From NCBI GenBank assembly GCA_049322675.1, contig JBMORM010000009.1, forward strand, positions 92,995-156,994: a DNA stretch of 64,000 nt, given 5' to 3'. Below the pieces are notes generated by a model. That model did no database searches. It was not told the DNA's origin and saw only the letters and a program-made list of their open reading frames with translations. The stretch's first letter is position 1. Every line of letters starts with the position of its first letter. A program made the position numbers and the translations under genes. Origin of the DNA: Patescibacteria group bacterium. Its GTDB lineage: Bacteria > Patescibacteriota > JAHJAL01. Shown one piece after another: positions 43,047-57,767 of this stretch.

Positions 43047-43063
43047 TTCTATTTTTCTCAAGG

Positions 43064-43090
43064 AAAAAACCCGCTGACCAAGCGGGTTTA
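43064..43090 (-). terminator. Rho-independent terminator for the minus-strand gene 43185-43550
   Basis: The minus-strand reading is aaaCCCGCTtggtcAGCGGGttttttcc. Confidence 0.45.
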
Positions 43091-43116
43091 AGTTTGTTTA
43101 AAAAGAAGAAGGAGAG

Positions 43117-43144
43117 GATCCCGTGGCAAGCGGGATTTTTTTTG
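43117..43144 (+). terminator. Rho-independent terminator for the plus-strand gene ending at 43046
   Basis: gATCCCGtggcaagCGGGATtttttttg. Confidence 0.55.
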
Positions 43145-43184
43145 AATGGAGGGAGGGGAGGAATTTTGGGGGCGGCTCAAGTTT

Positions 43185-43550
43185 TTATCTGTACAGCTTG
43201 AGCCATTTCAAAATTTGTTTAAATACTTTTCCGGCTACGATGAACCAGAAAAATATTCCAAATTTGAAATACCCCCAAATTCCTACAATAGTGAATATCA
43301 TCCCTCCGATGATAATCACTATCCCTCCGATAATCAGGCCGAATGGCCCGATAAATCGAAGAAAATCGTCTGGATGGTGATTGGCCATCCAGGCCAACCC
43401 GGTTGTCCCGACGATCAAGAGACAACCTGTGAAAAATGTGAGGGCCACCGCTATAAATATTATTAAAGCGCAGCCGGTGGCCCCCATATATAATTTTATC
43501 CAGAAATTTAAGCCCTGCCACCAGGCGAGGGCTTTTTGCCACATATTCAT
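43185..43550 (-). CDS. Small polytopic membrane protein
   Basis: 121 aa with 3-4 TM helices. A strong AGGAGG Shine-Dalgarno lies upstream of the ATG at 43550. I preferred it over the overlapping low-complexity plus-strand ORF 43146-43466. Confidence 0.5.
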   Translation of the reverse strand: MNMWQKALAWWQGLNFWIKLYMGATGCALIIFIAVALTFFTGCLLIVGTTGLAWMANHHPDDFLRFIGPFGLIIGGIVIIIGGMIFTIVGIWGYFKFGIFFWFIVAGKVFKQILKWLKLYR

Positions 43551-43820
43551 CCTTTCTTTACCTCCTTTCTATATTAAGGTGAAAGGATTTTTTCCTTCTT
43601 CTTTTTAAAGAGCATTTGCTCTTTGTTTTTATTTTGGCGTTTATTATATCATAATTTCATATTATTATCAAGACTTTGAGTCATTCTTATGATACAAATC
43701 GCAGAAATAATGTATGATATTAATTTTCAACATCTAATTTTGTCTTTATCCATTGACAAAATTATAATAATTTAACATTATGTAGTCTGATAATTAATCT
43801 AATAACAAAACTTATAAAAA

Positions 43821-44120
43821 ATGAAAAAAGATTATTGGGACAAATATATAGATGACTTATTGATTGATTTGGGAGCGGACGATTGGTCTAAAGAAGAAAG
43901 AGACAAGATACGAGATCAAGTGGCGGAAGCCTGGCAAACTCAGTTGATGGCCGATATCACCGGTAAATTAAATAGTTCTCAAAAAGTAACCTTAAAAACT
44001 ATGTTAAGTGAGGACAAAACAACGCTCCAGATCATCAATTTTCTCTATTCTATCCGTCCGGATATTATGAAAATAGTAGAATCCAGTATGATTGAGTTCA
44101 AAAAACAGTTGTTATCTTGA
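43821..44120 (+). CDS. Small helical hypothetical protein (cassette 2 small partner)
   Basis: 99 aa, paralogous to the 40483-40800 product. Confidence 0.45.
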   Translation: MKKDYWDKYIDDLLIDLGADDWSKEERDKIRDQVAEAWQTQLMADITGKLNSSQKVTLKTMLSEDKTTLQIINFLYSIRPDIMKIVESSMIEFKKQLLS

Positions 44121-44241
44121 TATTTTTTCTTTAGCAATAATCAGTCTGCCACTATCTTTTTGTCTTGACTGAATTGACAATTCCCCCTACAATTATTTCT
44201 TAATATATCTTTATTTTAGAAAATAATAATTTGTTACAAAT

Positions 44242-46494
44242 ATGAAAACTATAGAAAAAGAAAATTTGGTTTTTTCGCCACAAGAAGTTCGTGAATCAAA
44301 GCCAAATGTTAATTTGGAAAAATATCTGGAGAAACACTCTGATTTTAATCAGTTATTAAAAAAACCAAAGAAATCAGATGTTAAAGAAATTACTGATAAA
44401 CATACTTTGGGTTTAGAGAAATCAACCAAGCAATTGGCCGAGACACAAGGATTGGACAAAGAGAGTCAAAAATCATTGGTGGAAAAAACTTCATCTACCT
44501 TTAAAACTATCTGGTCTTTACCGGTAGTCAGAGACGTGATCGCCCAAGGGAAAAATTCTCTTGAAAACATTAAACAACTTGGGACGAACATCAAAAATAC
44601 TCTATATGATTCACTGGGAAATTTATTGAAGTTTGGTCAGGGTGAGACAGATAAATTGGTTTTTCCAAATCAGAAGAAAAATATCGAACAAGTAAAAGCC
44701 AAATTGGCTGAAATCAGAGAAAAAAACGAAAGGATTTTGCGCCAAAACGGATTTTTTGAAAACGAAACCATGAAAAAAGTCGCCAATTTTTTTGGTGAAG
44801 TAAAATCAGCAACTATCGATTTTACTATCGGTGCCGGCACTTTTGTTGCAACGACCGGTATTTTGGCTCCGGTCAATCCTGTAGTAGCAGTTGTGTCCGG
44901 TGTGGCCACAACGGCTGCAGTAATTGGCGGAAAATCGGAATATGACAGGCAAAATAAGGAAAATCAAGCAAGGGTAAAAAATCTAACGGATCGGAAATTG
45001 GAAAATCTCGCGGCTAAAATTAATCAAGAAGAAGACATTTTGACTTTAGTCGCCTATCAAAAGTCTCTACCATTTTTGGCGATAAGCAAAAAAGAAACAG
45101 CCAAGTTGGAAAATGCGTTACTGAATAACATTGACAAAAAGATACAAGAAAACAAGTCAAAGTCAGTCAAATATTCAATCGAAGGCAAAGAGTTGAAGTT
45201 GATTGTGTCAAAAAATGATGAAAAAACAATCGATGACTTGAGCAAAAATTTTATTGAAAATTTTACCAATGACCTAAAGAAAGAAAAATTGGTATTGGAT
45301 CGTAAAAAAATCGCCCAGGAAAGTCTAAGGACAGCTATGGCCGCGCCAAAAAATATCGCCAAAACTGCCTACAACATGTTTTTATCCAATCTCAAGACTC
45401 GCGGACCAGTCTATGCCGCATTACTTACCTTTGCTGTAGCATACAAGTGGAGTACAGGACAAGCTGACGCCCAAGATTTGCACGCTACCATTGATTGGGA
45501 TCAGGTTTGGCACAATGCTCCAGCGGAGATAAAAAAAGCAGTTGGTTTGGACGATGCAAAATTTGGAGAGAATCATCATTACGTTGATAAAGATTTTTCT
45601 GACCCGCACGAAAAACAACAATTTGAAACTTTTTACACAAACAATACCGATAAATTTCAGGTCAATCTGATGGTCAACGGAAAAGAACAAGTTGGCAATT
45701 TTCATCATTATTCTCAAACCGATGCCCAGCATTTTGCCAATATTTTGGACGCGGATGAAAAAAAAGACTTTGGAGTTTCTGAATATGCCAAGATTATTGA
45801 AAAAAATCATGGTATGAGTCCTGCGAATTTGAATGGATTGAGCGACGAGATTCATCTTTTGCCCAAGTTTTTTAAAGAAGCTTCTCCCGAACAAATAAAA
45901 GAATATTTTAGAAATCACAATATCGACATCGATAGTCCCAAAAATTTGGCGGTTGAAAATAATAAGTTTGTCATTGAGCTAATTAACAAAGCTAAAGGCT
46001 TGCCTGACTCGGTCCTAAATAATAAAGACTGGCAAGATAGTTTTAGTGAAATGACTAGAAAAGCCTTGAATATGGCTGACAAATATCCAAAAATATCGGA
46101 GTTGGATTCGGTAAAAAATTTATCTGACAAAGATCTAGAACATCCCGAGATACTACAATGTTTACAGGATTATTTTGCGACTACGAATAAAAGTAATGGA
46201 CCGATTGCTCTAGGTAATCTTGATGGTAATATTGCGGATTATCAAAAATTGTTTCAAAAACACGTACAAGATAATTTAGAAAAGAAGCCGGAAGCCAATT
46301 ATCTTGGTGCAGTTTTGGCTGATACTTATGCCTGGGGGAGAAATAATATAAAGACTATCGTCATCTCAACGGTTGTTGTCGCCTCCTCTCTCGTATTTAA
46401 AAATAGGATCACTAGCGGCGTTTCGTATGTCTGGAGTAAATTGACCAAGAAGAAAAAAGCCAAAGCAACCGGCCTACCAACACTACGATTTTAA
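44242..46494 (+). CDS. Large lineage-specific protein with Gly-rich membrane segment (cassette 2 large partner)
   Basis: 750 aa. An N-terminal K/E-rich region is followed by IDFTIGAGTFVATTGILAPVNPVVAVVSGVATTAAVIGG, analogous to the segment in the 747-aa protein. A C-terminal TM (IVISTVVVASSLVF) is present. No recognizable catalytic domain was found. Confidence 0.5.
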   Translation: MKTIEKENLVFSPQEVRESKPNVNLEKYLEKHSDFNQLLKKPKKSDVKEITDKHTLGLEKSTKQLAETQGLDKESQKSLVEKTSSTFKTIWSLPVVRDVIAQGKNSLENIKQLGTNIKNTLYDSLGNLLKFGQGETDKLVFPNQKKNIEQVKAKLAEIREKNERILRQNGFFENETMKKVANFFGEVKSATIDFTIGAGTFVATTGILAPVNPVVAVVSGVATTAAVIGGKSEYDRQNKENQARVKNLTDRKLENLAAKINQEEDILTLVAYQKSLPFLAISKKETAKLENALLNNIDKKIQENKSKSVKYSIEGKELKLIVSKNDEKTIDDLSKNFIENFTNDLKKEKLVLDRKKIAQESLRTAMAAPKNIAKTAYNMFLSNLKTRGPVYAALLTFAVAYKWSTGQADAQDLHATIDWDQVWHNAPAEIKKAVGLDDAKFGENHHYVDKDFSDPHEKQQFETFYTNNTDKFQVNLMVNGKEQVGNFHHYSQTDAQHFANILDADEKKDFGVSEYAKIIEKNHGMSPANLNGLSDEIHLLPKFFKEASPEQIKEYFRNHNIDIDSPKNLAVENNKFVIELINKAKGLPDSVLNNKDWQDSFSEMTRKALNMADKYPKISELDSVKNLSDKDLEHPEILQCLQDYFATTNKSNGPIALGNLDGNIADYQKLFQKHVQDNLEKKPEANYLGAVLADTYAWGRNNIKTIVISTVVVASSLVFKNRITSGVSYVWSKLTKKKKAKATGLPTLRF

Positions 46495-46517
46495 ATTTTA
46501 AAAAATATATTAATCAT

Positions 46518-48986
46518 ATGAAAAAGAACAATGATAATTTAGTTTTCGCAAGTGTCAAGAAATCAACTTCTTCCGATTTTGGTATTGATGAAAAAGAAAT
46601 ATCCATTTCCGATCAACAAAAAATACTTATCACTGTAATATATGCAGACAAAAAGCGTAAATATAGCGATGTTTTTTCCGCTAAAGACAAAGTGGATTAC
46701 GAATCTATTTCAGATGAATATTTAAAAAAATTCTCCCAACAAACAGGGGCGGATAATATTGATTATTTATTGGCTAATCAATACAAGATTTTTGAGAATA
46801 TCGAGATACAAAAGAAAATCAATCTGGCATTTAATGATTTTTTTACGGAAAAAAAAGAAAAATCAGGTCTTAATCGGGTCTTGAAAGAGATCATCAGCCA
46901 ACCGAAAAAGGATCAAATGGAAAAGGTCAGAAAAGAAATTCAGGCTGTAAAACAAAAAAATGCAGACAAACAAAATATCAAAAACATAACTAGACCCATT
47001 TCCGACAAATCGAATAATGAAATAAAAAAAGATGTTCAAGAAACAAGTGGTTTCTTTTCTAAAATAACAAGAAGAATAACAGGGTTTTTTAGTATAAAGC
47101 CCGCCATTACTCGCAAGATTAATGAAAAACAATTGGCAGAAGATTTAAATACGGAAAGTACTCCTACTGAAGAAATCTCTAAAGATATAGCAAGCCAGCC
47201 GAATAATGAAGATGTTAACAAAGATAACCCGAAAAAAGAAGCAAAGAAAGAGGAACCTTGTTTAAAGTGCTTGGAATTTAGTTTGAGAAGAAGCGGTTCA
47301 CGTTGCGGTAATTGCGGAAAAATACTTGAGAGCGTTGACTTGAACCAAATTGGTAACCTTGAAAAGATATTAAGCTATCACAAGACCATCAACAAAATTG
47401 ATGATGAGGGCGGTATTGGTTCGTGCTATAGAGAACATTTACACAACACTTTGCAAGATCTTATCGAAGACCACTTGATAGATATCAAGACAAGATATTA
47501 CGGCAACGAAGCATTTGAACCTTACGATTTGTATCGAGAATTAGGAGAAATATATACAATAAAATACGAACTCCTGAAAAAAGACTATCTACATAAAAAC
47601 ACAAATGATTCGGAGAAAGATTTTGAAACAAAGATGCAACGAAATACCGATGTCTATAACAAAAAATGCTACGAACATATGGATGAAAAAATCCGAGTTC
47701 TTTCTTCCGTTCTTGGAAAATTTCTTTGTCAGCCAAATGGAGTAGTGCCTGCTATTACCTCATCTCAGATATATTTATTAAAAGCGCATTGCTCGCAATT
47801 GGCATTATCTTTCTATATTGATGAAAATATTTCAATCGAGGAATTTGATTTTTATTCAAAAAAACAAACTCTTTATATTATTGATTCCAATTTAGATTTA
47901 TTTAAACAGATACATCAAACAGTCGATGGATTGAATCCAAATGCTGAACAAAAAAAATTGGTTTCATTTATGGTAGAAGAAAATTTATTAAAGCTGCTAG
48001 AGGAAGACAATGAAATTATAGCTATCGAAGAACTAATAAAATCATTGAGCGAAAAGTCACGCGATATTATCAATCAAGACGGACAAGAAAATTGTGAACA
48101 AAATTCGGAAAACAATTTGATCGCTGCCGATAGCGAGATAGAAATTCCTCATAAAAAAGATCGTAGTATTTTTTTGTCTGACTTGTTCAATAGAGAAGAG
48201 ATAAAGAGATTAGAAAAATTCATTATTTTTGTTACCAAGAAGATAAATAAGCTGATCGATGGAGATTTGGACAAAAAGTATTCTTTGAAACAACAAAGAG
48301 AAATTTTGATTGAAGGCGAAGGGAAAAAATCTTCAATTAAAGAAAAGTTTATTTCCGATGAAATTGAAAAACATATTATTTCGGCAAGCAAGACATTTGA
48401 AAAAGAAAACTTACATAAAAAAAGTAAGAAAAAGGATGAACGAATTGAAATAAATAATATTTTCGTAAGGAACATCAGTTCAATTACCGAAGAATTGATA
48501 GAAAAAATTTACCATGATCAAAAACAATGGATAAACGAGATAGATTTCAACATCCTTAGTCCATATCTAGCAAATGCTTCTATGAATAATCCAAATCTGC
48601 CAAATTCTTCATTGAAAAAATTATATGAGGAAGCTATGGACTATTTGTTTTTATCCACTCGCAACAAGACACATTTGTACCAAAATAATGCAGTTGACAA
48701 GAATCAGTTTACAAACGAATTCTGCATCTGGCTTGACAAAAAACTATCATATTTGGTGTCCGTCGAATTAAACCGGGTAAGCTACGCAGAATTCAAGAGT
48801 TTTCTTGGAACACTTCCAAAAAATAAACGAGGCGATACACGGAAATACAGAAGGAAGAATCCCCTTCTAGTTAATTTCCAACAAGATGAAAAAGATATTT
48901 GGTTGGAAAATTTAGTTAAAAATAGAGATAATAATTTTGTTACCAAAATTTTAAATATAACAGAAAATGATTTGCCGAAATCATAA
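46518..48986 (+). CDS. Large lineage-specific K/E-rich protein with a CxxC...CxxC zinc ribbon
   Basis: 822 aa. The N-terminus NDNLVFASVKK resembles ENLVFSPQEV of the preceding protein. A zinc ribbon reads PCLKCLEFSLRRSGSRCGNCGK. Confidence 0.5.
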   Translation: MKKNNDNLVFASVKKSTSSDFGIDEKEISISDQQKILITVIYADKKRKYSDVFSAKDKVDYESISDEYLKKFSQQTGADNIDYLLANQYKIFENIEIQKKINLAFNDFFTEKKEKSGLNRVLKEIISQPKKDQMEKVRKEIQAVKQKNADKQNIKNITRPISDKSNNEIKKDVQETSGFFSKITRRITGFFSIKPAITRKINEKQLAEDLNTESTPTEEISKDIASQPNNEDVNKDNPKKEAKKEEPCLKCLEFSLRRSGSRCGNCGKILESVDLNQIGNLEKILSYHKTINKIDDEGGIGSCYREHLHNTLQDLIEDHLIDIKTRYYGNEAFEPYDLYRELGEIYTIKYELLKKDYLHKNTNDSEKDFETKMQRNTDVYNKKCYEHMDEKIRVLSSVLGKFLCQPNGVVPAITSSQIYLLKAHCSQLALSFYIDENISIEEFDFYSKKQTLYIIDSNLDLFKQIHQTVDGLNPNAEQKKLVSFMVEENLLKLLEEDNEIIAIEELIKSLSEKSRDIINQDGQENCEQNSENNLIAADSEIEIPHKKDRSIFLSDLFNREEIKRLEKFIIFVTKKINKLIDGDLDKKYSLKQQREILIEGEGKKSSIKEKFISDEIEKHIISASKTFEKENLHKKSKKKDERIEINNIFVRNISSITEELIEKIYHDQKQWINEIDFNILSPYLANASMNNPNLPNSSLKKLYEEAMDYLFLSTRNKTHLYQNNAVDKNQFTNEFCIWLDKKLSYLVSVELNRVSYAEFKSFLGTLPKNKRGDTRKYRRKNPLLVNFQQDEKDIWLENLVKNRDNNFVTKILNITENDLPKS

Positions 48987-50394: not shown

Positions 50395-50772
50395 TTATTT
50401 TTTTTCCAGATTGAATCCAATCGGGGTCTTCTGATTATGTTCTTCCATGGCGGCAGTCAGATTTATGTTGCCAAAATTTTTTTCATATTGCTTTATTTGG
50501 GCTCCCAAAGCATTGAATAATGCTTTAGCGTGTTGAGGACTAATCGACAATCGATTGATTACTTTCATCATGTTCATTTGTGGCAAATGTTGGGCAAAAT
50601 CGAAGGTAAAGCCAAATGGGTTGTGATTAATAAAAACGGCGTCAGAGTATTTGGCTTCGAGTTTGTCAGGATCGATATTTATTTGTAGGCCTTTTTTTGA
50701 TTGTTCGTTGTTTTCGTTCATTGATTTTTTTAATAAATATTGTAATTGTATTTCAGTTGAATTATACGACAA
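50395..50772 (-). CDS. DUF3467-like hypothetical protein
   Basis: 125 aa. The motif DAVFINHNPFGFTFDF resembles the DUF3467 core. Confidence 0.45.
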   Translation of the reverse strand: MSYNSTEIQLQYLLKKSMNENNEQSKKGLQINIDPDKLEAKYSDAVFINHNPFGFTFDFAQHLPQMNMMKVINRLSISPQHAKALFNALGAQIKQYEKNFGNINLTAAMEEHNQKTPIGFNLEKK

Positions 50773-50932: not shown

Positions 50933-51400
50933 ATGAATGACAAAAACAAATTTATTTTGACCAAGCAGGGACTGGAAGAAATCAGAGACGAATTGGAAAA
51001 ATTGTACGAGGAAAGAAAACAGGTCGCGGCAATGATAAAAGAGGCTCGCAGCTATGGAGACATCTCAGAAAATTCAGAATATTCTCAAGCAAAAGAAAGA
51101 CAAGGCATGCTTGAAGGCAGAATTGCCGAGTTGGAGAATATTTTGAGAAATGCCATAATGGCCGAAGATAGCAGTTGTCGTCCCCATGTTGTTTGCGTTG
51201 GTTCAAAAGTAAAGGTAAGAAATTTGAATCAAGAAATTGATTATATTTTGGTGGGAGCAACACAGTCAAATCCCAAGGAAGGAAAAATATCGGTTGACTC
51301 TCCGGTTGGGAAGGCATTGTTGGGTAAATCTGTAGGCGAAGAGGTAACCGTGCAAGCTCCGGGTGGACAGATAAAGCTAATGGTAAAACAAATTGCCTAG
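50933..51400 (+). CDS. greA: Transcription elongation factor GreA
   Basis: 155 aa. The N-terminal coiled coil carries ...ARSYGDISENSEYSQAKERQGMLEGRIAELE. A C-terminal FKBP-like domain is present. Confidence 0.85.
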   Translation: MNDKNKFILTKQGLEEIRDELEKLYEERKQVAAMIKEARSYGDISENSEYSQAKERQGMLEGRIAELENILRNAIMAEDSSCRPHVVCVGSKVKVRNLNQEIDYILVGATQSNPKEGKISVDSPVGKALLGKSVGEEVTVQAPGGQIKLMVKQIA

Positions 51401-51425
51401 GTTATCAAAGGAAGCAATTTGTAGA

Positions 51426-51456
51426 AAATCCCAATTTTAATCTAATTGGGATTTTT
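51426..51456 (+). terminator. Rho-independent terminator after greA
   Basis: AAATCCCAATTttaatctAATTGGGATTTttat. Confidence 0.6.
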
Positions 51457-51505
51457 ATATAATGAAAAGGACGAAAAGATCATCAAATAATTAATAGGCA
51501 AAAAT

Positions 51506-53701
51506 ATGAACCAAGAAATTGAAGGGCATCAAAGTGTCGAGGAAGTACGGCGGGAGAAATTAAACAAAATTATTCAAATGGGGATAATCCCATATGCTGA
51601 TCGAGGAGAAAAAACTGCCGATATCGCGGCTATACTATCCAATTTTGAAAAATGGATGGAAAAGGATATTTTCGTTTGCGGGCGGATTATGGCTATCAGA
51701 AAACATGGAAAAGCTATTTTTGCGGATTTAAAAGATGATTCGGCGGAGATACAGCTCCATATTAAGGCGGATAATTTTTCCAACAATGAATTTGAATTTT
51801 TTGATGAACTGATTGATATTGGAGATTTTTTGCAAATTTATGGAAAATGTTTCAAAACTAAGCGTGGCGAGAAATCAGTTGAGGTTTCGATGTTCAAACT
51901 TTTATCCAAATCCTTGTTACCTTTACCGGAAAAATGGAAAGGATTACAAGATGCAGAAAAGAGATATCGATGGCGTTATCTGGACTTGTTGACCAATGAC
52001 CAGATCCGTGATCGTTTTCGTTTACGAGCGCGTATGATCAGCGCTATGCGAAAGTTTATGGACGAAAGAGGTTTTTTAGAGGTTGAAACCCCTGTTTTAC
52101 AGTCAAGCGCCGGCGGCGCGATCGCAAAACCATTTTTGTCCTATTATGATGCCATGGATTGTCCGGTCAAATTGAGGATTGCTCCGGAATTATATTTGAA
52201 AAGACTGTTGGTGGCAGGATACGAAAAAGTTTATGAAATTGGCAAGGTATATCGCAATGAGGGACGAGATCCATCTCATCTTCCGGAGTTTACCATGTTT
52301 GAATTTTATCAAGCATATTCAAATTACGAAGATTTGATGACAATGACAGAGGAAATGATCGCCAAGGTTTTGAAAGATACAGTTGGACGAATGTCTGTCA
52401 AAATAGGAGAACATAACATAGATTTAATTCCCCCCTACCCCAGGAAAAATATTTTTGAAATTATTAAAGAATACGGCGGACAGGATTTGTCTCAATACAA
52501 GACAGCACAAGATTTATTGACATATATCAGGCAAGCCGGTATCAAAATTGAAGGGAATTTGGAAAAATTTGGGTATGGTAAATTATTGGATGAAATTTAT
52601 AAAAAAATTGCTCGACCAAAGGTGATTGATCCTGTTTTTTTGATTGATCATCCGATTGAATTGTCTCCTTTAGCTCGAAAAAAAGATGCCGACCCGACCA
52701 GAGTTGATCGTTTCCAATTGATAGTCAATGGTTGGGAAATTTGCAATTCATTTTCCGAGTTGATAGATCCGGTAGACCAAGAGGAAAGGTTCAAAATACA
52801 ATCATCTTTGCGCTCAGGAGGAGATGAAGAAGCGCATGAATTTGACGAAGACTATGTTGAAGCAATGAAATATGGCATGCCGCCGATTGCCGGTTGGGGA
52901 ATGGGATTGGATCGAATGATGTCATTATTGACAGGAGTTGACAATTTGCGTGAGTTGATTTTGTTCCCTTTTGTGAAGAAGAAAGAGAAAGAAGAAAAGG
53001 ACAATATAATCGTTGATAAAAAAGAAATTATTGATAACCCGCCGATAAAACCAAGCAAGGAATTGTTGGATGATTTGGATTCCAAATTGCTTGCCAGTGA
53101 TTTATTTGATGATAATGAGCTGGACAAGTTAAATATTGAGACGATGGGAATTAGTCATGCTGATGCCTTGGAGTTGATGAAAAATAATCTTGAGTCGAAG
53201 AATCTGCAAAAACATAGTCTTGCGGTGGAAGCAATCTTAAAAAAAGTTGCGCAAAAAATCGGGGCTGACGAAGACGTCTGGTCAATTGCTGGTCTATTAC
53301 ACGATATAGACTATGAGAAGACAATGAAAGAACCAACACGACATTGTTTGCTGACTGAAGGTATTTTAAAAGCCAAGAAAGTAAGTCCGTTGATTATTCA
53401 GGCCATCAAAGCTCATAATCCTGAGTGTGGCGGCAAAAGAAAAACCAGATTAGACTACGCTTTGTATGCGATTGATCCCTTGAGTGGCTTTATTATTGCC
53501 TGCGCCTTGGTAACACCGGACAAAAAATTGACAAATTTGACAGTAGAATCAATTTTAAGAAAGTACAAAGAAAAATCATTTGCCAAAAGTGCAAATCGAG
53601 AAGCAATGCTTTCTATTGTCCAATTGGGAATTGAATTGGAAGATTTTGTCGAGTTGGGATTGGAAGCCCTAAAAGAAATTAGTCAGGAACTAGAATTATA
53701 G
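51506..53701 (+). CDS. lysS: Lysyl-tRNA synthetase (class II) fused to a C-terminal HD/HDIG (YqeK-like) phosphohydrolase domain
   Basis: The N-terminal ~500 aa carry the OB-fold anticodon-binding domain and class II motifs (..FLEVETPVLQ.., ..GMPPIAGWGMGLDRMMSLLTG..). A K/E linker follows. Residues ~560-731 contain KHSLAVEAILKKVAQKIG...AGLLHDIDYEK, the H...HD signature of HD-domain hydrolases. Confidence 0.85.
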   Translation: MNQEIEGHQSVEEVRREKLNKIIQMGIIPYADRGEKTADIAAILSNFEKWMEKDIFVCGRIMAIRKHGKAIFADLKDDSAEIQLHIKADNFSNNEFEFFDELIDIGDFLQIYGKCFKTKRGEKSVEVSMFKLLSKSLLPLPEKWKGLQDAEKRYRWRYLDLLTNDQIRDRFRLRARMISAMRKFMDERGFLEVETPVLQSSAGGAIAKPFLSYYDAMDCPVKLRIAPELYLKRLLVAGYEKVYEIGKVYRNEGRDPSHLPEFTMFEFYQAYSNYEDLMTMTEEMIAKVLKDTVGRMSVKIGEHNIDLIPPYPRKNIFEIIKEYGGQDLSQYKTAQDLLTYIRQAGIKIEGNLEKFGYGKLLDEIYKKIARPKVIDPVFLIDHPIELSPLARKKDADPTRVDRFQLIVNGWEICNSFSELIDPVDQEERFKIQSSLRSGGDEEAHEFDEDYVEAMKYGMPPIAGWGMGLDRMMSLLTGVDNLRELILFPFVKKKEKEEKDNIIVDKKEIIDNPPIKPSKELLDDLDSKLLASDLFDDNELDKLNIETMGISHADALELMKNNLESKNLQKHSLAVEAILKKVAQKIGADEDVWSIAGLLHDIDYEKTMKEPTRHCLLTEGILKAKKVSPLIIQAIKAHNPECGGKRKTRLDYALYAIDPLSGFIIACALVTPDKKLTNLTVESILRKYKEKSFAKSANREAMLSIVQLGIELEDFVELGLEALKEISQELEL

Positions 53702-53710
53702 GTATAAAAA

Positions 53711-53941
53711 ATGAAAGAATTTAATGATCATTTTGGCAATAGTAGTGACATTCATGAAGTCAATATTGAGTTTATGTCAAAATATACAAAAATGGGAAAT
53801 GTGTTGGGAGTTGACAATATTCGTACCAAGAAAGAATATTTTGATCCAGAAAAAGTTCGAGAAGATCTTATTAAAAAAGCCCAGGAATTGGCTAAAAAAG
53901 ATTGTGTTAGGTCTTTGTACAAGGAAATATTTGGCTATTGA
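53711..53941 (+). CDS. Hypothetical small protein
   Basis: 76-aa ORF with no recognizable motif. Part of a run of four small unknown plus-strand ORFs. Confidence 0.3.
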   Translation: MKEFNDHFGNSSDIHEVNIEFMSKYTKMGNVLGVDNIRTKKEYFDPEKVREDLIKKAQELAKKDCVRSLYKEIFGY

Positions 53942-53978
53942 TCGTCAATTTTAATACTGATTCTATTTTTTAAACATA

Positions 53979-54245
53979 ATGATTGAGAATTTTACAGATT
54001 CAAAAAAAGAAAATAGTATGAAAGGAACCGTTTTTTATGGTTCTCATGGTTTTTTAAAACGATTTGGAGACAATATTATTGATATAAAAGATAAAGGTAA
54101 AAGTTGTAATAATTCTGAAGGTTTGATTTTTGAAGAAAAACCGGGAGAAAACCAAAAAAAATATAAGGATATCATGATAAAAAATATAAGGGATTTTGTT
54201 TATAGTGTTAAAGAATATTTCTTGGAGAAGAATGAAACAGAATAA
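53979..54245 (+). CDS. Hypothetical small protein
   Basis: 88-aa ORF, K/E-rich. Confidence 0.3.
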   Translation: MIENFTDSKKENSMKGTVFYGSHGFLKRFGDNIIDIKDKGKSCNNSEGLIFEEKPGENQKKYKDIMIKNIRDFVYSVKEYFLEKNETE

Positions 54246-54250
54246 TTTTT

Positions 54251-54946
54251 TTGGAGAATAACATGTTGGAAAATTTGCAAAAAGAAGAGATTGTTCCTGA
54301 GCGTAATCATGTCTGTTGTGGAAGATGTGCCAAAGAAGCCAGTAGTAGATTGAGTCAATTGAGAAGCATCTTGTTGGATAATCCAGGCGAATATTTGCAT
54401 TACGATAATATTTTTATCGAATTTTCTAATCCGATCGTAGCTTATGACGATTGTGACAAAAAAAGATATTTTTTTACCGCTAAAGGAGAATTGTTTAACA
54501 GCAAGAATGATTCTCTGAAAGCCAAGGTACTTTTTTCCAATTTATTGGACAATCCAATATTGTTTGAAAAATCATCTCAGAAGAGATCAATGATTTTACG
54601 CAACCCGTATAGAGACGATTCTCCAAAGTGGACTGAAGAGATAGAACGCAATTACGGTACAAAAAACTTATTTTTGGTCTCATTGGCCGACGACAATATA
54701 TCCGAAAATAAAGATTTCGGTTTGGTTTTTAGCATGTACTCTTCGATTCTGGATGTATTAAAGGAAAGAGAGAAAAGAGAAAAGATTGTGTCTCTAAAAA
54801 GAAAAATATTGGGTTTAATCAGAACTTCGACTGCTGAAGAAATTGAAGATAAAACAGGCGTTGATTTTCTTCAGGGAATTATTGAAGAAGGAATATATTC
54901 TTCTCATTTTTTTGAGAAATTAAAATTTTATTATAATAATCGTTGA
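54251..54946 (+). CDS. Hypothetical protein
   Basis: 231-aa ORF. An N-terminal CCGRC cysteine cluster is the only notable feature. Confidence 0.4.
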   Translation: MENNMLENLQKEEIVPERNHVCCGRCAKEASSRLSQLRSILLDNPGEYLHYDNIFIEFSNPIVAYDDCDKKRYFFTAKGELFNSKNDSLKAKVLFSNLLDNPILFEKSSQKRSMILRNPYRDDSPKWTEEIERNYGTKNLFLVSLADDNISENKDFGLVFSMYSSILDVLKEREKREKIVSLKRKILGLIRTSTAEEIEDKTGVDFLQGIIEEGIYSSHFFEKLKFYYNNR

Positions 54947-54947
54947 A

Positions 54948-55328
54948 ATGGAAAGATTTTTTCCAAAATCATATCCCGAAGATAGACCGGTACCCAGTAA
55001 GAAAATGTCGGTAAAAACCCTGACAGCCAGTGTGTTTGTGATTGACGCCATGCCTTTTGGCACGGTTTATGACGAAAAAACCGTTAAGATGGATCCTTTG
55101 GACCTGGGAGACAATAGGAAAATTTTGCTTGAAAGAGCAAGAATAGTTTTGGATACAACTAGAAAAGGATTGAAACTGGAGGAAGATCCAAGAGAATTGA
55201 AGGTGGAAGATATGTTAAAAGACCATGAGCTATTAAAGAATATAAATGACGCTGGATTTGATTCTAAAATAATTAAAATCCTGACGGAAATAAAAAGATA
55301 TCTTTTGAAATGGTTTAACGGATCATAG
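54948..55328 (+). CDS. Hypothetical protein
   Basis: 126-aa ORF starting 2 nt after the previous stop. Confidence 0.4.
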   Translation: MERFFPKSYPEDRPVPSKKMSVKTLTASVFVIDAMPFGTVYDEKTVKMDPLDLGDNRKILLERARIVLDTTRKGLKLEEDPRELKVEDMLKDHELLKNINDAGFDSKIIKILTEIKRYLLKWFNGS

Positions 55329-57767
55329 AATCGAATACGGATCGACATCGATTGTCCAGCCATCTGGTATCATAGTTAAAAACTGCTGTAAATTTTGACC
55401 TTTGAGAATGATATGCCAGCGGTATTTATTTTTTATTTTGTGTAAAAATGTTGGTGAGGGACCCAGGATAGCCTGTAGGTCTTTATTTTTTTGTGTGGAA
55501 AATGCTTGGTTTAATACCTTGAAAACTTTAATTACTTCACTTCGGCATTTTGCCTGGTCAGGAGATTCATATAATAAACGAACAAGATTAACAAAAGGTG
55601 GAAATAGACTTTTTTGACGTTCGATCAATTCCGAATATGCAAAAAGCTGATAATCTTCTTTGGTCAAGGTTTCTAACAAGGGATTTTCCGGATCGAATGA
55701 CTGGATAAATACTTTGCCGGGGGTTTGACCTCGCCCAACACGACCAATTAATTGCAGCAAGAGCGAAAAATTTCTTTCTGTAGAACGAAAATCCGGCAAA
55801 TTGAATCCGGCATCGGCATTGATAATGCCGATCAAGTCGACATTGGGCAAATCCCATCCCTTGGCGATCATTTGGGTACCGATCAAAATATCCGCCTGAT
55901 GCGATTTGAAACTGGCAAAGATCTTATGATGGGCATTTTTGGTCTGAGTGGTATCGTGATCCATTCTCAAAATTCTAGCTTCAGGGAATAATTGACTGGT
56001 GTCTTGATGGACTTTCTGAGTACCGGCGCCATAAAATTTGATAGCGTGGCCGGAGCATTGAGGACAGGTGCGAGGGTTTTTTCCCTGTTGTCCGCAGTGA
56101 TGACATACAAGCGATTCCTGATTGAGATTAATATGATATGTAAGTGGAATATGACAATTGGAACAAAGGGCTACATAGCCACATTCTCGACAGAATACAT
56201 AGGTAGCCAAACCGCGGCGATTGAGAAATAGAAGTATCTGTTTTTTTTCCGTCAAAGCTTGCCTGATGGCCAATTGCAAAGAATAACTTAGCAAACTTTT
56301 GTTTTTGGCTGCAAATTCATCACGCAAATCGATCATAAAAAATTCTGGGCGTCGGTATTTTTGTGGAGATGACAATTCAGATATTGTCTGATTTAGGCGC
56401 AACAATTGATAGTGTCCTTTTTTAGCTTGCCAAAATGTTTCCAAACGAGGAGTGGCACTTCCTAGAATCAATTGAGAATTGGTCAATTCGCAGTATTTTT
56501 TGGCTACTGTTACAGCATGATAACGGGGAGTCATGTCCTGTTTGTAGCTGAATTCATGTTCTTCATCAATAATAATCAAACCTAGATTTGGAATCGGGGT
56601 AAAAAGAGCTGAACGGGAACCGATAACAATCCTGGCCTGACCATCGAAGATTTTCATCCACTGGTCGTATCTCTCACCAAGACTCATGTGGGAATGATAA
56701 ATTGCCAATTTTCCCTGAAATCTTTCTAAAAAACGAAGGATAGTTTGGGGTAATAAGGCTATTTCTGGAACTAAAACAATAACATTTTGTCCTTTTTGAA
56801 GAGCCGCCGCCGCCGCTTGCAGATAAATCTCAGTCTTGCCACTGCCGGTACGGCCAAAAAGTAGGATTGGTTTTGGGTTTTCTTGTTGACTTTGGTATTG
56901 AATTGCTTGCAACGCCTTGCTTTGATCGGTTGTGAGTGAAAGATTGGGGATATTGTTGTTTTTTTCAAATACCTCCGGGGTTCGAATCGTTTTTTCCTGA
57001 CGTGAAGTGAGCAAATTATTTCTTATCATTAGATTCAAGGTAGCTCGAGATACTTTTAGCTCTTGGCGAATAGTTGTCCAAGGAGCGGAGCGTCTGTATT
57101 TGAGAAAATCAATGATTGATTTTTGTTTGCCGGTTTTTGGTTGAATTGTGGTGCTATTTTTTACTGAATTAAGCGAAATTATCTCGCTAAACTTTGGCTT
57201 TATGACAGGTGGAAGAAGGCAATATTTTTTAATAATCAAACCTTTTTTGACTAGAATCGATAGCTCTTTTTGACTGTTTGGACCAAATTTTTCAGAGATA
57301 ATTTTTTCCGGTGTTGGTTTTTTTGTATGAAATAAAAAATTGATAATTTTGTTTTCTTTTGATTGTTTGTCGATTTTTTTTGTTCCCAATTTATAGATAG
57401 GAATTATCGATTGAGTAACAAATGAGGGTATCATGGCGAAAATTGCTTGTCCCGGGGAACAAAAATAATAATCAGCGATAAAATTGGCGAGGGCGATTTG
57501 ATATTTATTTAGAATAGGTTTATTATCGATAATTTGTTGGACGGATTTTAATTTGTATCCCTGCGGGCCTCGGTTGTGAATGGCAACGACAATACCATGA
57601 ACCAAACGACGACCAAATGGGACCAAGACCAATTGACCAATTTGAATCGATTCGACTAGTTCTTGTTTGATCAGATAAGTGTATCCTTCTTTTTGCGTGT
57701 GGCCAGTTTTACTATCAACAATAATCTGACAATATTTGTTATTCATGTTTTTATTATAACTTGGCAA
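55323..57767 (-). CDS. priA: Primosomal protein N' (PriA helicase)
   Basis: 814 aa. Walker A is LLFGRTGSGKTEIYLQ, with DEEHE (DExH) and a Cys-rich zinc-binding insert (CRECGYVALCSNCHIPLTYH...CHHCGQ...CPQCSGH). Confidence 0.85.
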   Translation of the reverse strand: MPSYNKNMNNKYCQIIVDSKTGHTQKEGYTYLIKQELVESIQIGQLVLVPFGRRLVHGIVVAIHNRGPQGYKLKSVQQIIDNKPILNKYQIALANFIADYYFCSPGQAIFAMIPSFVTQSIIPIYKLGTKKIDKQSKENKIINFLFHTKKPTPEKIISEKFGPNSQKELSILVKKGLIIKKYCLLPPVIKPKFSEIISLNSVKNSTTIQPKTGKQKSIIDFLKYRRSAPWTTIRQELKVSRATLNLMIRNNLLTSRQEKTIRTPEVFEKNNNIPNLSLTTDQSKALQAIQYQSQQENPKPILLFGRTGSGKTEIYLQAAAAALQKGQNVIVLVPEIALLPQTILRFLERFQGKLAIYHSHMSLGERYDQWMKIFDGQARIVIGSRSALFTPIPNLGLIIIDEEHEFSYKQDMTPRYHAVTVAKKYCELTNSQLILGSATPRLETFWQAKKGHYQLLRLNQTISELSSPQKYRRPEFFMIDLRDEFAAKNKSLLSYSLQLAIRQALTEKKQILLFLNRRGLATYVFCRECGYVALCSNCHIPLTYHINLNQESLVCHHCGQQGKNPRTCPQCSGHAIKFYGAGTQKVHQDTSQLFPEARILRMDHDTTQTKNAHHKIFASFKSHQADILIGTQMIAKGWDLPNVDLIGIINADAGFNLPDFRSTERNFSLLLQLIGRVGRGQTPGKVFIQSFDPENPLLETLTKEDYQLFAYSELIERQKSLFPPFVNLVRLLYESPDQAKCRSEVIKVFKVLNQAFSTQKNKDLQAILGPSPTFLHKIKNKYRWHIILKGQNLQQFLTMIPDGWTIDVDPYSIL

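What the first reader, a model, noticed from the sequence alone, without database searches (positions are those of the whole stretch)
51506..53701. LysRS fused to a YqeK-like HD domain: possible Ap4A synthesis/hydrolysis in one polypeptide
A complete class II lysyl-tRNA synthetase is extended by a K/E linker and a ~170-aa HD/HDIG domain (KHSLAVEAIL ... AGLLHDIDYEK). LysRS is the main source of diadenosine tetraphosphate. YqeK-type HD proteins are Ap4A hydrolases in other bacteria, so the fusion could couple alarmone production and removal. The fusion is seen in sequence. The function is inference.
Basis: partly seen in the sequence, partly recalled or inferred. Interest (0 to 1): 0.5.

Follow-up and report, generated by a model that had tools for sequence, protein, structure and literature searches.

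The report
LysRS fused to uncharacterised HD hydrolase
A candidate-phyla (Patescibacteria) bacterium makes its lysine tRNA-charging enzyme as one protein with an intact metal-dependent HD hydrolase from a large unstudied family. The fusion is real and conserved, but the idea that it destroys the enzyme's Ap4A by-product remains plausible and untested.

Summary
Window 51506-53701 (+) is one uninterrupted 731-aa ORF: a complete class II LysRS (aa 1-492), a 56-aa low-complexity linker, and a 183-aa HD domain (aa 549-731). It is not a frameshift artefact: 55 fused homologues were collected, down to 38% identity. Two Patescibacteria genomes carry the split form, lysS directly followed by the HD gene.

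The HD domain keeps all six ligands of a dinuclear metal site (H570, H599, D600, H613, H637, D657), intact in 54 of 55 fusions, so it is probably catalytic. It is not a YqeK orthologue: TIGR00488 scores 16 bits against a cutoff of 70, and YqeK's phosphate- and adenine-binding residues are not conserved.

It belongs to a large unnamed family of standalone ~183-aa HDIG proteins (at least 598 species). That family resembles YqeK in its N-terminal core and RNase Y in its C-terminal subdomain (shared EKSFA..RE motif). Standalone members sit mostly next to RNase R and SmpB, sometimes next to aaRS genes or Ham1.

Ap4A/Np4N hydrolysis is the best single guess (about 0.4). An RNA- or tRNA-directed role is a serious rival (about 0.3).

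The parts
51506..53701 (+). Complete lysS-HD fusion gene (731 codons plus stop)
   Evidence: Single ORF. 100% match to P0001, named 'lysine--tRNA ligase [Patescibacteria group bacterium]'. 55 fused homologues collected.
51674..51901 (+). OB-fold anticodon-binding domain of LysRS (aa 57-132)
   Evidence: PF01336, E 2e-13.
51953..52981 (+). Class II aminoacyl-tRNA synthetase catalytic core (aa 150-492)
   Evidence: PF00152, E 9.6e-82. NF001756 at 589 bits and TIGR00499 at 524 bits, both above their curated cutoffs and aligned end to end.
52982..53149 (+). Low-complexity D/K/L/E-rich linker (aa 493-548)
   Evidence: Composition. Length and sequence vary between fusion homologues. The first residues of the model have low pLDDT.
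53150..53698 (+). HD domain (aa 549-731), member of an unnamed family of ~183-aa HDIG proteins
53213..53476 (+). Span holding the six dinuclear-site ligands H570, H599, D600, H613, H637, D657 (plus near-invariant D602)
   Evidence: Positions. Intact in 54 of 55 fused proteins and in at least 95% of 220 standalone proteins at each ligand position. Aligned one-to-one with YqeK H29, H58, D59, H91, H117, D135 (ligand identities from PMC13627108).
53573..53602 (+). Family-specific C-terminal motif KSFAKSANRE (K690-E699), shared with RNase Y 'EKSFAIQAGRE'
   Evidence: F692, A693 and R698 are invariant in 55 of 55 fusions. hhalign places the motif on the RNase Y motif.
50933..51400 (+). greA, the conserved upstream neighbour of lysS in Patescibacteria (context, not part of the fusion)
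   Evidence: Pfam GreA_GreB_N and GreA_GreB. greA-lysS synteny is also seen for unfused and split lysS.

Best explanation
Shown: the gene encodes a genuine, conserved bifunctional protein of Patescibacteria. It consists of the housekeeping class II lysyl-tRNA synthetase, a flexible ~55-aa linker, and a ~183-aa HD-superfamily domain. The HD domain keeps the complete H-HD-H-H-D ligand set of a two-metal phosphohydrolase site and is under strong purifying selection. It is not a YqeK orthologue. It belongs to a large uncharacterised family of standalone HDIG proteins found across many bacterial phyla. In some Patescibacteria the same two functions are adjacent genes (greA-lysS-HD-Ham1), so the fusion came from an operon, or reverts to one. 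Inferred: the HD domain hydrolyses a nucleotide-type side product of LysRS adenylate chemistry. The most likely substrates are dinucleoside polyphosphates (Ap4A, Ap4N, Ap3A), and possibly Np4 caps that such compounds or LysRS itself put on RNA. Synthesis and removal would then sit on one polypeptide. The closest precedent is the NadD-YqeK fusion, in which an HD hydrolase was proposed to clear the dinucleotide by-products of an adenylyltransferase.
For: The fusion is real and conserved. Split lysS|HD pairs occur in L033 and L038, separated by 3 and 0 nt, with a Ham1/ITPase gene next. The six metal ligands are intact in 54 of 55 fusions, and basic residues K673, K690 and R698 are conserved. YqeK Ap4A hydrolases are the only solved structures that the family profile finds by sequence, and hhalign gives 97.4% probability, E 1e-11, with all six ligands in register. 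In the top 150 family representatives, every aaRS fusion partner is LysRS, the classic Ap4A producer (PMC10148737). Other partners point to nucleotide substrates: HD-Ham1 (P0389), PAS-GGDEF-HD (P0285) and LysRS-HAD-HD (P0319). The NadD-YqeK fusion, proposed as proofreading of dinucleotide by-products, is a precedent (10.1101/2021.12.01.470718). YqeK also decaps Np4-RNA (PMC13010140), which could reconcile the RNA-decay neighbours of the standalone genes.
Against: No activity has been measured for any family member. The YqeK HMM fails (16 bits against 70). YqeK's phosphate-binding residues R18, K54 and R133 and its adenine pocket are not conserved or not aligned. NCBIfam scores and hhalign show an equally credible relationship to the RNase Y catalytic module, including a shared C-terminal motif. 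The dominant neighbours of standalone members are RNase R and SmpB, not nucleotide-metabolism genes. From general knowledge, not tested here, most Bacillota already carry yqeK, so a second Ap4A hydrolase would be redundant. Three unfused CPR lysS loci have no HD gene nearby, so the activity is dispensable for LysRS.
Confidence: 0.4

Rival explanations
1. RNA- or tRNA-directed enzyme. The HD domain is an RNase Y-like phosphodiesterase module that acts on RNA. It might cleave RNA, heal 2',3'-cyclic-phosphate or 3'-phosphate ends of tRNA(Lys), tmRNA or decay intermediates, or hydrolyse the short oligonucleotides left by RNase R. Tethering it to LysRS would deliver it to tRNA.
For: All 30 family members tested hit the RNase Y model (best E 1.5e-10), and 29 hit the HD part of a Trm56 tRNA methyltransferase-HD fusion model. 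Both are stronger than YqeK. hhalign to RNase Y gives 95.2% probability, E 2.8e-8, over 156 columns including the shared EKSFA..(N/G)RE motif. RNase R is the immediate downstream gene for 17 of the 97 close neighbours, and SmpB for 6 (25 and 20 of 85 loci overall). Other aaRS neighbours occur: argS/tyrS, ileS, and glyQ-glyS-aspS. A LysRS-B3/4-HD triple fusion carries a tRNA-editing-type domain.
Against: The family lacks the KH domain, the membrane anchor and the HDIGK lysine of RNase Y. The rnr-smpB linkage is concentrated in Bacillota and may be inherited synteny rather than independent evidence. The exclusive choice of LysRS among aaRS fusion partners is not explained by a general RNA role. 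The Ham1 and GGDEF partners point to small nucleotides.
Confidence: 0.3
2. Other small-molecule clean-up. The HD domain hydrolyses lysyl-adenylate, misactivated aminoacyl-adenylates or non-canonical nucleotides (general house-cleaning). Fusion to LysRS would reflect co-expression in a reduced genome rather than Ap4A chemistry.
For: The greA-lysS-HD-Ham1 operon and the HD-Ham1 fusion link the family to nucleotide-pool sanitation. A LysRS-HAD-HD fusion exists. YqeK itself is promiscuous, acting on NaAD analogues and 8-oxo-GTP (10.1101/2021.12.01.470718).
Against: There is no direct evidence. It does not explain the RNase R/SmpB linkage. Repeated and exclusive fusion to LysRS suggests a LysRS-specific link.
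Confidence: 0.15
3. Non-catalytic accessory domain. As in the beta-subunit of bacterial GlyRS, the HD fold serves only as a tRNA acceptor-arm-binding or allosteric, nucleotide-sensing module.
Against: GlyRS-beta has lost the HD doublet (Ser393-Lys394 in E. coli). Here all six ligands are conserved in 54 of 55 fusions and in at least 95% of standalone proteins at each ligand position. The domain also exists mainly as a standalone protein.
Confidence: 0.07
4. Artefact. Two adjacent genes (lysS and an HD gene) were merged by a sequencing or assembly error that removed a stop codon.
For: Split lysS|HD pairs, separated only by a stop codon, exist in L033 and L038.
Against: 55 independent fused sequences come from many samples and assemblers, at 38-100% identity, with 50-70-aa linkers that the split forms lack. 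The identical protein occurs in an NCBI MAG and in Logan assemblies.
Confidence: 0.01

Closest known systems
YqeK (COG1713, TIGR00488), symmetrical Ap4A/Np4N hydrolase and Np4-RNA decapping enzyme of Firmicutes
   Same: HD fold. Same six-residue dinuclear ligand pattern H..HD..H..H..D in register, plus the preceding N-terminal helix (hhalign 97.4%, E 1e-11). YqeK proteins are the only PDB sequences that the family profile detects. YqeK also occurs fused to an adenylate-forming enzyme (NadD-YqeK).
   Different: Fails the curated HMM (16 bits against 70.15). YqeK has a ~20-aa insertion between the HD doublet and the third His. R18 and K54 map to N566 and Y603; R133 and the C-terminal adenine pocket are not aligned. 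No nadD appears among the neighbours.
RNase Y catalytic module (HD domain plus C-terminal region; TIGR03319)
   Same: The alignment covers the HD core and the C-terminal subdomain, including the shared EKSFA..(N/G)RE motif (hhalign 95.2%, E 2.8e-8, 156 columns). All 30 family members tested hit the model. Standalone members have RNA-decay gene neighbours (rnr, smpB).
   Different: No transmembrane or coiled-coil region and no KH domain. HDIGK is replaced by HDxD[YWF]. The score is far below the cutoff (34 bits against 454). The N-terminal helix is not shared.
NadD-YqeK fusion of mycoplasmas (JCVI-Syn3A 0380)
   Same: Same architectural logic: an ATP-dependent adenylyl-transfer enzyme carries a C-terminal dinuclear HD hydrolase in organisms with reduced genomes. 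That hydrolase was proposed to remove erroneous dinucleotide products.
   Different: The partner enzyme is different (NadD, not an aaRS), and so is the HD family.
HD domain of the bacterial/plastid GlyRS beta-subunit
   Different: The GlyRS-beta HD has lost the catalytic doublet and acts in tRNA acceptor-arm binding. The domain here keeps all its ligands.
LysX (LysRS-MprF fusion, NF002821)
   Same: A class II LysRS fused to a second catalytic domain. The LysRS part of the window protein aligns to the LysX model at 487 bits.
   Different: The LysX partner is an N-terminal membrane lysyl-phosphatidylglycerol synthase that consumes Lys-tRNA. The score here is below the LysX cutoff of 742, and the partner is a C-terminal soluble HD hydrolase.

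Membership tests
Class II lysyl-tRNA synthetase (NF001756 / TIGR00499) | Full-length match above the curated cutoffs | tested here: met
   589 bits against 468, and 524 bits against 428, aligned end to end at aa 11-493.
Class II lysyl-tRNA synthetase (NF001756 / TIGR00499) | N-terminal OB anticodon-binding domain plus class II catalytic core | tested here: met
   PF01336 at aa 57-132 and PF00152 at aa 150-489.
HD superfamily / HDIG (PF01966, TIGR00277) | Match above the gathering or curated cutoff | tested here: met
   PF01966 at 33.8-38.3 bits against 22. TIGR00277 at 40.5-43.4 bits against 27.6.
HD superfamily / HDIG (PF01966, TIGR00277) | Metal-binding H...HD...D residues | tested here: met
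   H570, H599, D600 and D657, plus H613 and H637. Conserved in 54 of 55 fusions.
Unnamed ~183-aa standalone HDIG family (e.g. Dictyoglomus P0175, Caloranaerobacter P0155) | Full-length alignment with the family-invariant residues, including D602, G661, K673, F692-A693 and R698 | tested here: met
   44-52% identity over 183 aa. The fused representative P0004 scores E 2.3e-71 against the family profile. Invariant residues are present.
YqeK (TIGR00488, COG1713) | Score at or above the curated equivalog cutoff | tested here: not met
   15.7-16.2 bits against 70.15. Only 18 of 30 family members reach E<=0.01.
YqeK (TIGR00488, COG1713) | Dinuclear site with six ligands (Gt numbering H21, H50, D51, H83, H109, D127) | tested here: met
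   hhalign places H570, H599, D600, H613, H637 and D657 on YqeK H29, H58, D59, H91, H117 and D135. Ligand list from PMC13627108.
YqeK (TIGR00488, COG1713) | Tetraphosphate-binding residues R18, K54, R133 | tested here: not met
   The equivalents are N566 and Y603. R133 lies beyond the end of the alignment.
YqeK (TIGR00488, COG1713) | C-terminal adenine pocket (L164, Y172, T175; F135/F163 stacking) | tested here: not met
   The C-terminal third of the domain does not align with YqeK. It aligns with RNase Y instead.
YqeK (TIGR00488, COG1713) | Genomic linkage or fusion with nadD | tested here: not met
   No NadD family appears among the 25 commonest Pfam families of the 97 close neighbours from 76 loci.
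YqeK (TIGR00488, COG1713) | Symmetrical Ap4A hydrolase activity | not testable with these tools
   Requires an enzyme assay.
RNase Y (TIGR03319) | Score at or above the curated cutoff | tested here: not met
   32.9-33.8 bits against 454.
RNase Y (TIGR03319) | N-terminal membrane anchor, coiled coil and KH domain | tested here: not met
   No KH domain is detected. The domain is standalone or preceded by LysRS.
RNase Y (TIGR03319) | HD core plus conserved C-terminal EKSFAIQAGRE segment | tested here: met
   hhalign 95.2%, 156 columns. K690-S-F-A...N-R-E aligns with EKSFAIQAGRE.
RNase Y (TIGR03319) | Endoribonuclease activity | not testable with these tools
   Requires an enzyme assay.
GlyRS beta-subunit HD domain | Degenerate HD fold lacking the catalytic His-Asp doublet, embedded between the B3 domain and the anticodon-binding domain | tested here: not met
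   The doublet H599-D600 is retained here. GlyRS-beta has Ser-Lys (PMC8464048). The resemblance is in fold only.

The most novel reading that the evidence does not exclude
The ~183-aa HDIG family is a minimal RNase Y-like RNA phosphodiesterase. In Patescibacteria it has been repeatedly welded to LysRS to act on tRNA(Lys) or on Np4-capped or damaged RNA ends. That would be a previously unrecognised, synthetase-tethered RNA repair or quality-control activity. The same family would work alongside RNase R and SmpB in Bacillota.
Probability: 0.25. Interest if true: 0.75.

Novelty: new variant of a known kind. Interest (0 to 1): 0.5.

Why it matters
If the HD domain degrades Ap4A/Np4N, this would be the first natural fusion of the main Ap4A-producing enzyme with its hydrolase. 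That would be direct evolutionary evidence that, at least in reduced genomes, Ap4A is treated as a by-product to be cleared rather than a signal to be accumulated. Whether Ap4A is a signal or a by-product is a long-running question. Independently of that, the fusion and the lysS-HD operon give a first functional handle on a large uncharacterised HD family: at least 598 species and 433 clusters at 50% identity. In Bacillota that family sits in the secG-rnr-smpB block and shares a motif with the RNase Y catalytic module. A short substrate screen on one small soluble domain could assign a function to the whole family.

Tried and rejected
- **Frameshift or assembly artefact:** rejected.
- **YqeK orthology:** rejected by TIGR00488 and by the residue mapping.
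- **Degenerate GlyRS-beta-like HD:** rejected because all ligands are conserved.
- **Literature:** searches for a LysRS-HD fusion, COG2316, and Patescibacteria plus LysRS found nothing relevant.
- **HD gene next to unfused CPR lysS:** absent in all 3 loci checked.
- **Ham1 or a second HD copy in the window:** none found.
- **YqeK sequences:** the viral-contig scan found none. The metagenome scan gave only two complete YqeK genes, so that profile is shallow.
- **Single origin of the fusion:** not supported by crude NJ trees of either half, though these trees are weak.
Full report

Window 51506-53701 (+) is a single 731-codon ORF. Pfam finds the OB anticodon-binding domain (aa 57-132), the class II catalytic core (aa 150-489, E 9.6e-82) and an HD domain (aa 569-654; 33.8 bits in the whole protein, 38.3 bits for the C-terminal part alone, cutoff 22). 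NCBIfam places the N-terminal 493 residues above the curated LysRS cutoffs (NF001756 589 bits against 468; TIGR00499 524 against 428). It places the C-terminus above the HDIG domain cutoff (40-43 bits against 27.6). The linker (aa 493-548) is D/K/L/E-rich.

The identical protein (P0001) is annotated only as 'lysine--tRNA ligase' on a 374-kb Patescibacteria MAG contig. About 40 full-length fused relatives (690-739 aa), down to 38% identity, appeared in the first search, including one from Candidatus Doudnabacteria. Adding the exhaustive representative search gives 55 LysRS+HD proteins, counting fragments and two triple fusions. GC and GC3 are the same in both halves. A frameshift or assembly artefact is excluded.

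**2. What is the C-terminal domain?**

It is 44-52% identical, over its full length, to a very large set of standalone ~183-aa proteins. These are named only 'HDIG domain-containing (metallo)protein' and come from Dictyoglomus, Caloranaerobacter, Atrimonas, Desulfallas, Peptococcaceae and many MAGs. A profile of the family finds 433 clusters (50% identity) at E<=1e-30 among 1.84 billion representatives.

Fused and standalone members share H570, H599-D600, D602, H613, H637, D/E657, G661, K673, K690, F692-A693 and R698 (window protein numbering). The six metal ligands are intact in 54 of 55 fused proteins; only P0024 has Gln at position 613. Each ligand position is conserved in at least 95% of 220 standalone proteins. 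The AlphaFold2 model is confident (pLDDT 91.3, pTM 0.89) and all-helical.

**3. Is it YqeK-like?**

TIGR00488 scores 15.7-16.2 bits against a cutoff of 70.15. Even so, YqeK proteins (8jja, 8wmy, 2ogi, 3ccg, 2o08) are the only PDB sequences the family profile detects (best E 3.1e-7). hhalign against two YqeK sequences recovered from metagenomes gives 97.4% probability, E 1e-11.

That alignment covers only family columns 13-126: the N-terminal helix plus the metal core. It puts the six ligands in register with YqeK H29, H58, D59, H91, H117 and D135. These are the dinuclear-site ligands described for GtYqeK as H21, H50, D127 and H83, H109, D51 (PMC13627108). YqeK carries a ~20-aa insertion after the HD doublet. 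Its tetraphosphate-binding residues R18 and K54 correspond to N566 and Y603. R133 and the C-terminal adenine pocket fall outside the alignment.

By NCBIfam scores the family is closer to the HD region of RNase Y (30 of 30 members, best E 1.5e-10, alignment spanning the whole domain). It is also closer to the HD part of a Trm56-HD fusion model (29 of 30) than to YqeK (18 of 30, best E 1.1e-5). With these, hhalign gives 95.2% probability, E 2.8e-8, over 156 columns. That covers the core and the C-terminal subdomain and superposes the window's K690-S-F-A...N-R-E on RNase Y's EKSFAIQAGRE. The two hhalign E-values are not strictly comparable, because the YqeK profile has only two sequences.

Conclusion: this is a distinct, uncharacterised HDIG family with mosaic resemblance to YqeK (N-terminus and core) and to the RNase Y catalytic module (core and C-terminus).

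**4. Catalytic or not?**

The one precedent for an HD fold inside an aaRS is GlyRS-beta. It has lost the HD doublet (Ser393-Lys394 in E. coli) and serves acceptor-arm binding (PMC8464048). Here every ligand is conserved, so a catalytic role is far more likely.

**5. Genomic associations**

*(a) Patescibacteria.* Two genomes carry the split form. In L038 the lysS stop codon abuts the HD start (GAA TAA ATG). In L033 three bases lie between them (TAA TTT ATG). greA is upstream in L038, as in the window, and a Ham1/ITPase gene is downstream in both. Three unfused CPR lysS loci keep greA-lysS but have no HD gene. Crude NJ trees of the LysRS half and of the HD half both scatter fused forms among unfused or standalone ones. 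That suggests several fusion or fission events, but these trees are weak.

*(b) Other fusion partners in the top 150 representatives.* LysRS is the only aaRS partner. There are also:
- LysRS-HAD-HD (P0319)
- LysRS-B3/4-HD (P0387)
- HD-Ham1 (P0389)
- PAS-PAS-GGDEF-HD (P0285)
- AMMECR1-HD (P0257)
- PQQ-propeller-HD (P0247)

*(c) Standalone genes.* Of 85 loci, RNase R is nearby in 25, SmpB in 20, enolase in 20 and SecG in 13. Among the 97 close co-directional neighbours from 76 loci:

| Neighbour family | Count |
|---|---|
| RNase R | 17 |
| alpha/beta-hydrolase | 7 |
| SmpB | 6 |
| SecG | 5 |
| 4HBT | 4 |
| GlyRS-alpha | 2 |
| LysRS | 2 |
| Ham1 | 2 |

. This is the Bacillota secG-(esterase)-[HD]-rnr-smpB block. 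Individual cases put the gene next to argS and tyrS (Dictyoglomus), next to ileS (Atrimonas), or overlapping glyQ ahead of glyS and an aspS-like gene (L019).

**6. Mechanism**

Shown: the protein is a bona fide LysRS tethered to an HD domain that looks intact and has a two-metal site.

Inferred: the exclusive choice of LysRS among the aaRS points to a nucleotide or dinucleotide substrate. LysRS is the classic producer of Ap4A and other dinucleoside polyphosphates, and it can cap RNA with Np4 in vitro (PMC10148737). The lysS-HD-Ham1 operon, the HD-Ham1, GGDEF-HD and HAD fusions, and the homology of the metal core with YqeK point the same way.

The NadD-YqeK fusion of mycoplasmas is a close architectural precedent. 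There an HD hydrolase was proposed to clear wrong dinucleotide products of an adenylyltransferase (10.1101/2021.12.01.470718). YqeK also removes Np4 caps from mRNA and speeds its decay (PMC13010140). An Np4N/Np4-cap hydrolase could therefore fit both the LysRS partners and the RNA-decay neighbours.

I rate this reading at about 0.4. Against it stand the RNase Y-like C-terminal subdomain, the RNase R/SmpB neighbourhood, the loss of YqeK's substrate-binding residues, and the likely co-occurrence with yqeK in Bacillota (general knowledge, untested here). Together these give an RNA- or tRNA-directed role about 0.3. Other nucleotide or adenylate clean-up gets about 0.15, and a non-catalytic role about 0.07.

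**7. Novelty**

No paper in the searchable library describes a LysRS-HD fusion or this HD family. Public annotation calls the protein simply lysine--tRNA ligase. aaRS with appended domains and HD hydrolases fused to adenylyltransferases are both known kinds, so this is a new variant of a known kind, not a new category.

Its value is as a Rosetta-stone lead. It gives an assayable hypothesis for a widespread uncharacterised family. If Ap4A hydrolysis is confirmed, it is also a natural argument that Ap4A is a by-product to be cleared in minimal cells.

**Verdict:** observation confirmed; interpretation partly supported; interest 0.5.

Noticed in passing
window 53711-55328 (+): Four consecutive small ORFs (76, 88, 231 and 126 aa) lie directly downstream of lysS-HD and converge on priA (55323-57767, - strand). 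None has a Pfam match at E<=1e-3.
   Followed up: partly
window 40803-48986 (+): Three large consecutive ORFs (747, 750 and 822 aa) have essentially no Pfam match. The only hit is a marginal transglutaminase-like DUF553 match below its cutoff. They may be lineage-specific CPR surface or unknown proteins.
   Followed up: partly
window ~51425-51465: The greA-lysS intergenic region contains an inverted repeat (AAATCCCAATT...AATTGGGATTT) followed by a T-run, then a TATAAT-like hexamer. This suggests a greA terminator and a separate lysS-HD promoter (sequence printed). It was not scanned formally.
   Followed up: no
window 50395-50772 (-): A DUF3467 protein is encoded on the opposite strand between rplT and greA.
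   Followed up: no
L033 4477-7249; L038 3955-7139: Patescibacteria operon (greA)-lysS-HD-Ham1/RdgB, with lysS and the HD gene separated by 0-3 nt. This is the split counterpart of the fusion, and it links the HD family to an ITPase.
   Followed up: partly
L019 5983-11213: The end of the HD gene overlaps the start of glyQ by 4 nt. glyS and an AspRS-like gene follow, giving an HD-glyQ-glyS-aspS cluster in an unclassified bacterial MAG.
   Followed up: partly
L003, L005 and about 23 other Bacillota loci: The standalone HD gene is inserted in the conserved secG-(esterase/4HBT)-[HD]-rnr-smpB block, immediately upstream of RNase R or SmpB.
   Followed up: partly
P0319 (918 aa), P0387 (973 aa): Triple fusions: LysRS-HAD phosphatase-HD, and LysRS-B3/4 (PheRS-beta editing-type domain)-HD.
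   Followed up: partly
P0285 (656 aa), P0389 (395 aa), P0257 (370 aa): Other architectures of the same HD family: PAS-PAS-GGDEF-HD, HD-Ham1 and AMMECR1-HD.
   Followed up: partly
L061 143-2128: In another Patescibacteria contig the family member is preceded by a different 220-aa HD protein. It is followed by a TsaC/Sua5-like gene; that identification is by eye from the YrdC-type motif, not tested.
   Followed up: no
L092, L093, L095, L097-L099: The YqeK bait picked up soil-metagenome members of the same HD family as by-catch (motif GLAALLHDFDYERW...DKAFARGVSRE). This shows a distinct soil subgroup.
   Followed up: no
window 1381-26892: The window carries five tRNA genes (Leu-CAG, Gly-CCC, Leu-GAG, Cys-GCA, Val-TAC). 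None is tRNA-Lys and none lies near lysS-HD.
   Followed up: no
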